Positions 3,878 through 5,643 of a DNA stretch of 32,000 nt are shown here, one piece after another. Every line of letters begins with the position of its first letter. Positions within the stretch are counted from its first letter, which is position 1. The notes below the pieces were generated by a model that was not told the origin of the DNA, ran no database searches, and saw only the letters and a program-made list of their open reading frames with translations. The position numbers and the translations under genes are program-made. This DNA is from Candidatus Heimdallarchaeota archaeon (lineage in GTDB: Archaea > Asgardarchaeota > Heimdallarchaeia > Heimdallarchaeales > Kariarchaeaceae): assembly GCA_030149205.1 (NCBI GenBank), contig JASBSB010000001.1:90001-122000 (forward strand). Direction: 5' to 3'.

Positions 3878-3983
3878 TATATATGTGAATTATTAAGAAT
3901 TAATGTGAATGTTTAATGTATTCGAATGTATATATATGTGAAATATTAGGAATTAAAGTGAATGTTTAATGTAATTGAATGTA
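3878..3983. repeat. Tandem direct repeat, 2 x 53 bp (48/53 identical), overlapping the dnaG 3' end
   Basis: 3878-3930 tatatatgtgaattattaagaattaatgtgaatgtttaatgtattcgaatgta versus 3931-3983 tatatatgtgaaatattaggaattaaagtgaatgtttaatgtaattgaatgta. Confidence 0.95.
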
Positions 3984-5521
3984 GTATAAATTGTACCGTT
4001 TGAATCAGTTTGTGACCCATATTCAGGTATTTCATCACTTACCACCGCACCGAGTAAGTATTTCACATGTTTATTTTTTGCTTCAGAAAGCAGCCTCGAG
4101 GATATTACTCCATCAATCAAAATCGCGGAGATATCTCTCTTGGTCTGGGTTAGGTAATTGTAGGTGTCTGCTGTTGAAACTGTTTGAAATGGCCTGTTTT
4201 CTGAATCAAAAAACGTTGAGGATGTGGAATGTTGAATTTCTCTGAGCGCCCCAAGAAGTTCTCTTGGAATCTCAAATTCAGGAACAGGTGGTCTTCTTTC
4301 TCTGCCACCTCTTCTTCCTGATCCTCTCGAAAATTTAGAGCGTTTATCGAATCCCTGTCCAGGTCTTTTGTCAAATCTCCTTCGGTTTCCAGATCTTCTA
4401 GGTTCTGAATACCTGTTTGTCTTTTTAGATTTAGACTTCAGTTCTGACATCCGGGGTTTGTTTTCACTCTGAGGCTTTTCATCTTTGTTTTTTGGTTCTG
4501 ATTTTCCATCAAATTTACTTTTAACTCTAGTAAGAAATGACTTTTTTTTGTCAGGTGTGGTTTTCACATCATCCTTAACATCAGTTCTTTGATTACTAGA
4601 ATACCTTCGTCTATCTCTGGAAATTCCCCTTGATGAGGTTCCTCTTCTTGAACCATTCATATCACCTAAGAAATCCCTGACGGATTTTTCAAAGGTTAAG
4701 AATTTCGCATCTTTAGCGGGAATTTTTCTTTCGAGCAAACTTCTAACATCTGCTTTTGAAAGGTCTTCAACCTCACTATGTGGAGGAGCTCTGGCAATAT
4801 AATCAATTTCAATTTGATTTAAGAGTTGCTTGAGAACTTGATCCCCTCCGCCATCTCCATCGAGAAAGACAGTAACAGATTTTTTCTTACACAGGTTTCT
4901 TACAGATGAGGGTAAATTTGTCCCTCTGACTTCGATAACGTTATCGATGCCACAGCTCAATAATTTGATAACATCTGCCCTTCCTTCTACTAAGATAATT
5001 TCATCATTCTCGAAAATCGCATTTCCTGCGGCAAGTTTTTCTTTCCCAAATGTGATTGGCTTCTTCGTAGATAGGGTGGATTTTAACACTGTATCTTTAA
5101 GATTTTTAATTTCTGGATCTTCTTTCCAGTTTTGCATTATTTCTTTGGCTCTATCAACAATTTTGGTTTTCTTTTCCTTACGAACGTCTTCAATCCCGTT
5201 TAATTTGACTGAAGCATCATAAGAACCAACCCGATCAACTATTTCAAGGGTTGCAGCTAGGATTGCTGTTTCAACCTTGTTTAAACTTGAAGGGATCTCA
5301 ATTGTACCAATGGTTTTTCCACCGGATGTTTTTATTTTTAATGAAATCCTTCCAATTCTCCCAGTTCTTTGGAGCTGTTTGAATTCCATTTCCCTTTCAA
5401 GAATTCCTTCGGTCTGGCCAAATAATGCACCTACAATATCAGCTTCTGAAGCAAGACCATCTACGGTCACCTGCGCGGTTAGTTTATATTTTATTGCTTC
5501 TTCATAAGTTTTTGCGCCGAT
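3953..5521 (-). CDS. dnaG: Archaeal DnaG (TOPRIM primase-like, exosome-associated RNA-binding protein)
   Basis: Motifs DIVGALFGQTEG, LQRTGRIGRI, AILAATLEIVDRVG and TOPRIM ILVEGRADV...VFLDGDGGG. The frame stays open 17 codons upstream of the GTG at 5470, to an ATC at 5521-5519, and encodes GAKTYEEAIKYKLTAQ, which resembles the conserved DnaG N-terminus. Confidence 0.93.
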   Translation of the reverse strand: MGAKTYEEAIKYKLTAQVTVDGLASEADIVGALFGQTEGILEREMEFKQLQRTGRIGRISLKIKTSGGKTIGTIEIPSSLNKVETAILAATLEIVDRVGSYDASVKLNGIEDVRKEKKTKIVDRAKEIMQNWKEDPEIKNLKDTVLKSTLSTKKPITFGKEKLAAGNAIFENDEIILVEGRADVIKLLSCGIDNVIEVRGTNLPSSVRNLCKKKSVTVFLDGDGGGDQVLKQLLNQIEIDYIARAPPHSEVEDLSKADVRSLLERKIPAKDAKFLTFEKSVRDFLGDMNGSRRGTSSRGISRDRRRYSSNQRTDVKDDVKTTPDKKKSFLTRVKSKFDGKSEPKNKDEKPQSENKPRMSELKSKSKKTNRYSEPRRSGNRRRFDKRPGQGFDKRSKFSRGSGRRGGRERRPPVPEFEIPRELLGALREIQHSTSSTFFDSENRPFQTVSTADTYNYLTQTKRDISAILIDGVISSRLLSEAKNKHVKYLLGAVVSDEIPEYGSQTDSNGTIYTTFNYIKHSL

Positions 5522-5527
5522 ATTAAA

Positions 5528-5533
5528 ACCTCC
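5528..5533 (-). promoter_or_regulatory. Shine-Dalgarno GGAGGT of dnaG
   Basis: Plus-strand acctcc lies 6 nt upstream of the in-frame ATC. Confidence 0.75.
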
Positions 5534-5643
5534 ATGCCGTTTGGCACAATTAAACTATATCTTTTGTTAATTATAAATATATGTTTATGAAGTATTTTCG
5601 TCAGGTTCCTTTAAATGAAATTTAAACTATAATACAACTTTTT

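What the first reader, a model, noticed from the sequence alone, without database searches (positions are those of the whole stretch)
5470..5533. dnaG appears to initiate at a non-canonical ATC codon
Seen: the minus strand reads GGAGGT-tttaat-ATC GGC GCA AAA ACT TAT GAA GAA GCA ATA AAA TAT AAA CTA ACC GCG CAG GTG. No ATG/GTG/TTG occurs between the upstream in-frame stop and the GTG at 5470, which lacks an SD and cuts into the conserved N-terminal domain. Established: archaeal DnaG N-termini have a K-Y-x-I/L-x-A/V segment before GxxExxDxxGAxFGQTEG; inefficient start codons tune expression (bacterial infC uses AUU). Inference: translational control of DnaG by a near-cognate start, which automated annotation would miss.
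Basis: partly seen in the sequence, partly recalled or inferred. Interest (0 to 1): 0.65.

Follow-up and report, generated by a model that had tools for sequence, protein, structure and literature searches.

The report
Archaeal dnaG starting at AUC
In this Heimdall-group (Asgard) archaeon the dnaG gene almost certainly begins at the weak codon ATC instead of ATG, and at least nine other core genes in the same genome do likewise, so gene finders misplace their starts and the lineage seems to tolerate or exploit weak start codons.

Summary
On the minus strand, GGAGGT (5533-5528), a 6-nt spacer and ATC (5521-5519) open the dnaG frame. No ATG, GTG or TTG lies between the stop TAG 5557-5555 and GTG 5470.

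The ATC aligns with the ATG start of DnaG in 23 of 30 related genomes. It is ATC or ATA in all four sister genomes of the same clade. The Shine-Dalgarno (SD) motif is conserved at the genome's modal spacing. Codons 2-17 change mostly at third positions, so they are translated. Assembly error, a start at GTG 5470 and a start at the out-of-frame ATG 5535 are rejected.

In this genome, family profiles also place non-canonical starts on uL3, uL1, eS17, aIF1, Orc1, OapB, PPDK, Acs and Csx7. For uL3, uL1, eS17 and aIF1 the same holds in related genomes of the family but not in neighbouring families.

The real infC analogue is aIF1, the start-codon fidelity factor, which starts at ATA or ATT in 9 of 10 family genomes.

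This scan had already reported weak starts on other DNA of this genome (eS17, rpl1) and weak aIF1 starts in other Asgard genomes. No expression data exist.

The parts
3953..5521 (-). dnaG coding sequence as re-annotated here (522 codons from ATC 5521, plus stop 3955-3953)
   Evidence: NCBIfam NF003108 archaeal DnaG: 387.6 bits against a cut-off of 300, residues 11-495 matching profile positions 1-406/419. Toprim domains found by Pfam. Translation.
5519..5521 (-). ATC, the inferred start codon
   Evidence: It aligns with the start ATG of DnaG in 23 relatives and with TTG in one. It is ATC in G002 and G003 and ATA in G001 and G007.
5528..5533 (-). Shine-Dalgarno GGAGGT, 6 nt upstream of the ATC
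   Evidence: Complementary to the 16S 3' end ...GGATCACCTCCT, at the modal spacing. A GGAGGT or AGGTGA motif is conserved at this place in all 30 loci.
5570..5577 (-). TATA-box-like TTTATAAT, 48 nt upstream of the ATC
   Evidence: This is the conserved upstream block in the alignment of the five ATH genomes. Its position implies a leader of about 25 nt that contains the SD. The transcription start site is inferred, not measured.
5555..5557 (-). In-frame upstream stop TAG
5468..5470 (-). GTG used by ORF and gene callers (wrong start)
   Evidence: and P0001. No SD precedes it. The codon is ATT, ATA or ATC in the four sister genomes. Starting here would delete invariant K11/Y12.
5491..5535 (-). 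Out-of-frame 14-codon upstream ORF from ATG 5535 (overlaps the SD) to TAA
   Evidence: The register is not conserved: the xTG-to-ATH distance is 14 nt in G000 and G002 and 15 nt in G001 and G003, and the codon is ATG, TTG or CTG, or absent. There is no evidence of function.

Best explanation
dnaG is translated from ATC 5521. The mRNA has its own promoter and a short unstructured leader. The GGAGGT Shine-Dalgarno pairs with the 16S 3' end and places the ATC in the P site. The ordinary initiator Met-tRNA (anticodon CAU) then pairs with A and U and mismatches at the third base. Such complexes are the ones aIF1 normally rejects. DnaG synthesis should therefore be lower than from ATG and should depend on how strictly start codons are checked. 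This is not special to dnaG. It is one of at least ten genes in this genome with an SD-led ATH or CTG start, in a family whose aIF1 gene itself starts at ATA/ATT. Shown: the codon, the SD, homology to the ATG of relatives, conservation in five genomes, and translation of the N-terminal codons. Inferred: initiation by Met-tRNAi, reduced efficiency, and dependence on aIF1.
For: Sequence and frame. Gene identity as DnaG. The homologous codon is ATG in 23 of 30 loci and TTG in 1. It is ATC in G000, G002 and G003 and ATA in G001 and G007, always 5-7 nt after GGAGGT or AGGTGA. Among the five ATH genomes, codons 2-17 differ at codon positions 1/2/3 by 26/17/64, with 47 synonymous and 28 non-synonymous codon differences, and GAKTYEE changes only synonymously. 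The upstream 48 nt show no periodicity (103/104/100). G2, K4, K11 and Y12 are invariant across families. The third base switched between C and A but never to G, while full-length DnaG diverged to about 50% identity. SD spacing is modal. A conserved TATA block lies upstream and no conserved RNA structure is predicted. The initiator tRNA is canonical: A1:U72, GGG/CCC stem, CAU anticodon. Other genes: full-length profiles align from the non-canonical codon for uL3, PPDK, Acs, Orc1, uL1, Csx7, eS17, OapB and aIF1. The same is seen in relatives for uL3, uL1, eS17 and aIF1. Literature: aIF1 discriminates against AUU in Sulfolobus (PMC4705826).
Against: There is no proteomic, ribosome-profiling or transcript-start evidence, and the organisms are uncultured MAGs. 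ATH codons show only a weak genome-wide excess behind SD motifs (1.4-1.6-fold against 6.6-fold for ATG), so such starts are a small minority. Ribosomal protein genes also use ATH, which argues that these codons may not be very inefficient here. The 'lower expression' step is therefore uncertain. A second near-cognate codon (ATA 5494) lies in frame 9 codons downstream.
Confidence: 0.8

Rival explanations
1. The ATC start was selected specifically to keep DnaG scarce or to regulate it. coli pcnB or infC.
For: ATH persisted in five genomes with C-to-A or A-to-C switching and never reverted to ATG, although one substitution would restore it. DnaG is not needed in large amounts (general knowledge).
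Against: The same clade has ATH starts on uL3, uL1 and eS17, which need high output, and on unrelated enzymes. No dnaG-specific element such as a conserved structure or upstream ORF accompanies the start. DnaG has no known role in start-codon selection, so no feedback loop exists.
Confidence: 0.25
2. The weak start has no function. In this family start-codon checking is relaxed, or selection is weak, so ATG-to-ATH changes drift to fixation in many genes, dnaG among them.
For: The distribution is nested and cumulative. aIF1 and eS17 are affected family-wide, uL3 and dnaG in genera g1 and g5, uL1 in g1 only, and Orc1 and PPDK in this genome only. No ATH start was seen at these genes in the three neighbouring families.
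Against: ATH is retained without reversion over deep divergence. Every case found sits behind a good SD, although my scan required an SD, which is an ascertainment bias. aIF1 starting at ATA suggests a regulatory loop rather than pure decay.
Confidence: 0.35
3. Translation starts at the annotated GTG 5470, or at ATA 5494, and the upstream codons are untranslated remnants.
For: GTG is a canonical start and gene callers choose it. ATA/ATT at 5494 is also conserved as a near-cognate.
Against: The GTG is not conserved: it is ATT, ATA or ATC in the sisters. Neither codon has an SD. Codons 2-9 show coding-type substitution and G2 and K4 are invariant in relatives that start at ATG. The DnaG profile begins at K11, upstream of the GTG.
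Confidence: 0.05
4. The real start is the upstream ATG 5535. It would be brought into frame by an assembly indel in the TTTT run or by a programmed frameshift.
For: Adding one T would give M-E-V-F-N-I-G-A-K, which resembles the in-frame TTG reading MEVFTIGAK of G003.
Against: G002 has the same 14-nt out-of-frame register with no homopolymer (GGTATTAAT). G001 has CTG and G007 has nothing at that place. The xTG overlaps the SD and has no SD of its own. uL3, uL1 and eS17 have in-frame stops directly upstream of their ATH codons, so weak starts are real in this lineage regardless.
Confidence: 0.03

Closest known systems
E. coli infC (IF3) AUU start with translational autocontrol (Butler et al. 1987, as cited in PMC4705826)
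   Same: An SD-led mRNA whose only usable start is an AUH near-cognate codon, conserved among relatives and missed or flagged by gene finders.
   Different: IF3 is itself the factor that rejects AUU, which closes a feedback loop. DnaG has no such role. The machinery here is archaeal (aIF1, aIF1A, aIF2). In this lineage the infC-like gene is aIF1, not dnaG.
E. coli pcnB (poly(A) polymerase I) AUU start limiting expression (from my own knowledge, not checked here)
   Same: An RNA-metabolism protein, as archaeal DnaG is an exosome subunit, whose output is thought to be held down by a weak AUU start.
   Different: A bacterial gene and a single-gene case. Here the weak start is shared with ribosomal protein genes, so 'kept low' is not established.
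Near-cognate starts of eS17, uL3, uL1 and aIF1 in the same archaeal family
   Same: The same clade, the same codon set (ATC/ATA/ATT), the same SD arrangement, and the same replacement of an ATG that is kept in neighbouring families.
   Different: eS17 and aIF1 are affected across the whole family. dnaG is affected only in genera g1 and g5.
Eukaryotic eIF1 autoregulation through a poor start context (Ivanov et al. 2010, cited in PMC6237735) and near-cognate initiation controlled by eIF1
   Same: Output of a set of genes depends on start-site stringency set by the eIF1/aIF1 family.
   Different: Eukaryotes scan and use Kozak context. Here an SD positions the ribosome, and the weak element is the codon's third base.
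Near-cognate initiation sites seen by ribosome profiling in Haloferax volcanii (PMC7261190)
   Same: Archaeal ribosomes were detected at near-cognate codons, about 30% of the putative alternative sites.
   Different: Those were alternative or extra sites set aside as possible false positives. They were not the sole, conserved start of core genes.

Membership tests
Archaeal DnaG (NCBIfam NF003108, Toprim primase/exosome subunit) | Full-length match to the equivalog profile above the curated cut-off | tested here: met
   387.6 bits against a cut-off of 300, E 8.7e-116, residues 11-495 matching profile positions 1-406/419.
Archaeal DnaG (NCBIfam NF003108, Toprim primase/exosome subunit) | Toprim domain with the acidic E and DxD motifs | tested here: met
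   Pfam Toprim_4, Toprim and Toprim_2 match at residues 173-251. LVEGRAD and FLDGDGGGD are visible in the translation.
Archaeal DnaG (NCBIfam NF003108, Toprim primase/exosome subunit) | Conserved N-terminal KY...GQTEG segment | tested here: met
   K11, Y12, G35, Q36, T37 and G39 are invariant in a ten-sequence cross-family alignment.
Genes with a near-cognate (AUH) primary start codon | No ATG, GTG or TTG in frame between the upstream stop and conserved N-terminal residues | tested here: met
Genes with a near-cognate (AUH) primary start codon | The codon is homologous to the canonical start of orthologues and is preceded by an SD at working distance | tested here: met
Genes with a near-cognate (AUH) primary start codon | Found in independent assemblies, with the codons just downstream evolving as coding sequence | tested here: met
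   Five genomes from two genera. Third-position excess of 26/17/64.
Genes with a near-cognate (AUH) primary start codon | Direct evidence of initiation at the codon (N-terminal peptide, initiation-site profiling or toeprint) | not testable with these tools
infC-type autoregulated weak start | The gene product itself discriminates against the weak start codon | tested here: not met
   The product is DnaG, not an initiation factor. The family's aIF1 gene does meet this feature.
infC-type autoregulated weak start | Changing the weak codon to ATG abolishes the regulation | not testable with these tools
   This needs a reporter or in vitro assay.

The most novel reading that the evidence does not exclude
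In this Heimdall-group family, weak AUH/CUG start codons form a stringency-controlled gene set. aIF1 limits its own synthesis through its AUA start, as IF3 and eIF1 do. The level it settles at sets the output of DnaG, Orc1, OapB, uL1, uL3, eS17 and others together. Replication and ribosome production would then be coupled to start-codon fidelity in close relatives of eukaryotes.
Probability: 0.25. Interest if true: 0.8.

Novelty: new variant of a known kind. Interest (0 to 1): 0.6.

Why it matters
Reviews of archaeal translation list only AUG, GUG and UUG as start codons (PMC7531240, PMC4705826). This case adds a conserved, SD-led AUC/AUA start on a core gene. It sits within a family-wide set of such starts that includes the fidelity factor aIF1.

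The practical consequence is annotation quality. Gene finders truncate or over-extend these proteins in Asgard MAGs: DnaG here loses its first 17 residues. That affects alignments, structure prediction and phylogenies.

The conceptual consequence is a concrete, testable system for asking how an archaeal, eukaryote-like initiation machinery handles third-base mismatches. It also lets one test whether aIF1 autoregulation exists in archaea.

Tried and rejected
1. Single-protein searches of genome and metagenome contigs for closer relatives found nothing. Profile searches returned only relatives at 59% identity or less, so they added no members of the ATH clade.

The DNA behind five further clade proteins could not be read. 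P0003 and P0011 carry I at the aligned position. P0006, P0009 and P0010 are truncated calls.

3. A plain GGAGGT-plus-codon count was uninformative.

4. A hexamer coding-potential score, meant to census untranslated versus translated regions upstream of the first canonical start, did not discriminate: the negative 95th percentile exceeded the positive median. I abandoned it, so the genome-wide number of weak starts is only roughly bounded, at about 3% of SD-led long ORFs.

5. A scan of short ORFs was mostly noise, but it recovered aIF1, eS17 and OapB.

6. An initiator tRNA with an altered anticodon is rejected. The tRNA is canonical with CAU. Base modifications cannot be seen.

7. A conserved RNA structure at the start is rejected, with 0 predicted pairs.

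8. A 'natural Sui-' aIF1 was considered. The family has ELQGNHE where its neighbours have ELQGDHR. The N aligns with yeast eIF1 D83, the site of sui1-D83G. However, N at this position is common in other archaeal aIF1 (18 of 58 representatives) and showed no link to abnormal N-termini, so it is not diagnostic.

9. No solved structure matches the DnaG N-terminal domain by sequence.

Full report
**Observation.** The features are GGAGGT at 5533-5528, the spacer tttaat, ATC at 5521-5519, and then 16 sense codons to GTG 5470-5468. The frame is closed upstream by TAG 5557-5555. It holds no ATG, GTG or TTG before the GTG. The mechanical ORF list therefore starts at the GTG and gives 505 aa. The public protein collection holds that same truncated product (P0001).

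**What the gene is.** Translated from the ATC, the protein has 522 residues. It matches the NCBIfam equivalog for archaeal DnaG at 387.6 bits against a cut-off of 300. Pfam finds Toprim domains. The DnaG profile begins at K11. That is seven residues upstream of the GTG-encoded residue.

**Comparative evidence for the start.** I searched 41 related genomes with the protein and fetched 30 loci. Record titles of matching public contigs name these relatives Candidatus Heimdallarchaeota. One of them, isolate RS678, corresponds to G010 of the same family. I aligned every locus on the codon homologous to the ATC:
- ATG in 23 loci.
- TTG in 1 locus.
- ATC in G000 (this genome), G002 and G003.
- ATA in G001 (same genus) and G007 (a second genus).
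- Ambiguous in G006, where GTA aligns and a GTG lies inside the SD three codons upstream.

A GGAGGT or AGGTGA motif lies 5-7 nt upstream in all loci. Proteins that start at ATG read MGAKTD..TKY. The five ATH genomes read IGAKTYEE.IKY. G2, K4, K11 and Y12 are invariant across families.

Among the five ATH genomes, codons 2-17 differ at codon positions 1/2/3 by 26/17/64. There are 47 synonymous and 28 non-synonymous codon differences. The segment GAKTYEE changes only synonymously. The 48 nt upstream show no periodicity, at 103/104/100. The stretch between the ATC and the GTG is therefore translated. Five independent assemblies rule out a consensus error.

**Alternatives for the start site.**
- GTG 5470 is not conserved. 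It is ATT, ATA or ATC in the sister genomes, and no SD precedes it.
- ATG 5535 is out of frame and opens a 14-codon ORF. The distance from this xTG to the ATH codon is 14 nt in G000 and G002 and 15 nt in G001 and G003. The codon itself is ATG, TTG or CTG, or is missing. It is best read as the flank of the SD.
- The indel idea fails because G002 has the same out-of-frame register without any homopolymer run.
- ATA 5494 is another in-frame near-cognate codon. It has no SD, and it lies downstream of residues that are conserved and translated.

**Leader and ribosome-binding site.** The genome's 16S rRNA ends in ...GGATCACCTCCT, so the full SD is GGAGGTGA. Before 800 unambiguous ATG starts, GAGG is most often followed by 7 nt (45 of 135 occurrences). 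That is exactly the dnaG spacing.

A TTTATAAT block at 5577-5570 is the conserved upstream element in the five genomes. It lies 48 nt before the ATC here and about 70 nt before it in the sisters. This implies an own promoter and a leader that contains the SD. No conserved RNA structure is predicted around the start.

**The trait is not specific to dnaG.** In the genome's long ORFs I counted SD matches of at least 5 nt before in-frame codons lying at or upstream of the first canonical start. I compared these with the rate at internal codons.

| Codon | Enrichment |
|---|---|
| ATG | 6.6-fold |
| TTG | 5.0-fold |
| CTG | 3.4-fold |
| GTG | 1.7-fold |
| ATT | 1.6-fold |
| ATC | 1.4-fold |
| ATA | 1.4-fold |
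| Baseline | about 1.1-1.3-fold |

Weak starts are thus a small minority. Even so, among 28 candidates, full-length family profiles align from the non-canonical codon in several genes:

| Gene | Codon | Residues | Profile positions |
|---|---|---|---|
| uL3 | ATT | 4-332 | 2-339/342 |
| PPDK | CTG | 2-927 | 2-865/865 |
| Acs | ATT | 9-638 | 5-634/649 |
| Orc1/Cdc6 | ATT | 4-402 | 4-402/415 |
| uL1 | ATA | 2-212 | 4-214/216 |
| Csx7 | ATT | 14-227 | 6-211/216 |

A scan of short ORFs added eS17 (ATC; Pfam positions 2-68 match residues 2-68) and OapB (ATA). Against 228 canonical SD-led starts, this is roughly 3% of SD-led long ORFs.

**The same genes in relatives** (f1 is this genome's family; f2-f4 are neighbouring families).
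- uL3 starts at ATT in G000-G003 and G007. It starts at ATA in G006 and TTG in G009. It starts at ATG in the other five f1 genomes and at ATG or GTG in all 18 loci of f2-f4. An in-frame TGA inside the SD lies two codons upstream, so no upstream start is possible.
- uL1 starts at ATA or ATC in the four genomes of this genus and at ATG elsewhere.
- eS17 starts at ATC or ATA in 10 of 11 family genomes. It starts at TTG, GTG or ATG elsewhere.
- Orc1 (ATT) and PPDK (CTG) are weak only in this genome, while the sister genomes have ATG.

No ATH start was seen at any of these genes in f2-f4. The pattern is nested and cumulative within one family.

**aIF1.** The genome's only SUI1/aIF1 gene lies outside the window. 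It has no canonical start before its zinc knuckle. The frame reads TGA ACA ACA ATA TTC GAT GAT ... and the first canonical codon, a TTG, falls inside the knuckle. The NCBIfam profile aligns from residue 7.

Across the family, the codon before FDD(D/E) is ATA in eight genomes, ATT in one and TTG in one. A GAGGT or AGGTGA motif lies 7-11 nt upstream. Three genomes also carry an ATG only 3 nt after the SD. Outside the family, aIF1 starts at ATG or GTG.

aIF1 is the factor that rejects AUU complexes in Sulfolobus (PMC4705826). This arrangement is therefore the true counterpart of the infC AUU start and of the eIF1 poor-context loop (PMC6237735). Earlier notes of this scan report the same for aIF1 in other Asgard genomes. 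They also report weak starts of eS17, rpl1, oapB and others in this genome. I re-derived eS17, rpl1, oapB and the family's aIF1 myself.

**Searching for a cause.**
- The initiator tRNA is ordinary: A1:U72, a GGG/CCC stem and a CAU anticodon.
- The family's aIF1 reads ELQGNHE where neighbouring families have ELQGDHR. The N aligns with the D of LQGD in solved aIF1, YciH and yeast eIF1. In yeast eIF1 this is D83, whose D83G mutant binds the pre-initiation complex poorly (PMC3300007).
- N at this site is frequent in other archaeal aIF1, in 18 of 58 representative sequences. It showed no link to odd N-termini. This stays a weak lead.

**Mechanism and reading.**
- Shown: the position of the start, its SD, its conservation, and that it is one of a family-wide set.
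- Inferred: Met-tRNAi initiates on AUC with a third-base mismatch.
- Inferred: aIF1 opposes this, so output is sub-maximal and sensitive to stringency.

Whether the weak start was selected to tune DnaG, is part of an aIF1-governed set, or is neutral drift under relaxed checking cannot be decided here. Use of ATH by ribosomal protein genes argues against very low efficiency and against a dnaG-specific purpose.

**Novelty.** The reviews I read list only AUG, GUG and UUG for archaea. Ribosome profiling in Haloferax saw near-cognate sites but set them aside. Weak AUH starts are well known in bacteria and mitochondria. I therefore class this as a new variant of a known kind.

**Limits.** The genome-wide count rests on an SD-conditioned scan, so starts without an SD would be missed.

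Noticed in passing
G000:C4:157383-157706 (minus; locus L305:1471-1794), outside the window: The only aIF1/SUI1 gene has no canonical start before its zinc knuckle and most likely starts at ATA. The homologous codon is ATA or ATT in 9 of 10 genomes of the family and ATG or GTG in neighbouring families. This is a candidate for infC-like or eIF1-like self-limitation.
   Followed up: yes
G000:C2:414659 (minus, uL3, ATT); G000:C4:669392 (plus, uL1, ATA); G000:C8:235525 (plus, eS17, ATC): Three ribosomal protein genes start at ATH codons behind strong SDs, with in-frame stops directly upstream. The ATH start is conserved in the genus (uL1), in two genera (uL3) or across the family (eS17).
   Followed up: yes
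G000:C8:252913 (plus, Orc1/Cdc6, ATT); C4:532119 (plus, PPDK, CTG); C8:500361 (minus, Acs, ATT); C7:231277 (minus, OapB, ATA); C8:14223 (minus, Csx7, ATT): Further genes whose full-length family profiles begin at a non-canonical codon. Orc1 and PPDK have ATG in sister genomes, so these changes are recent. Three of the weak-start genes (DnaG, Orc1, OapB) are replication-associated.
   Followed up: partly
window 4280-4660 (minus), inside dnaG: DnaG carries a basic insert of about 125 residues, rich in Arg, Gly, Ser and Lys, between the Toprim domain and the C-terminal domain. In relatives the match to DnaG is split around it.
   Followed up: no
window 5491-5535 (minus): A 14-codon ORF from an ATG that overlaps the dnaG SD, out of frame with dnaG. 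Its register and start codon are not conserved in the sister genomes.
   Followed up: partly
window 5522-5569 (minus) against L002, L004 and L007: The dnaG leader of this genome is about 23 nt shorter than in its three congeners. The deletion lies between the conserved TATA block and the SD.
   Followed up: no
L011 (G006:C207), dnaG start region: In G006 the codon aligned to the start is GTA, behind AGGTGA, and an in-frame GTG lies inside that motif three codons upstream. The real start there is unclear. The same genome has ATA at uL3 and at eS17.
   Followed up: no
aIF1 alignment, loci L306-L335: Family-specific ELQGNHE replaces ELQGDHR at the position of yeast eIF1 D83/R85. N at this site is common among other archaeal aIF1, so its meaning is open.
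   Followed up: partly
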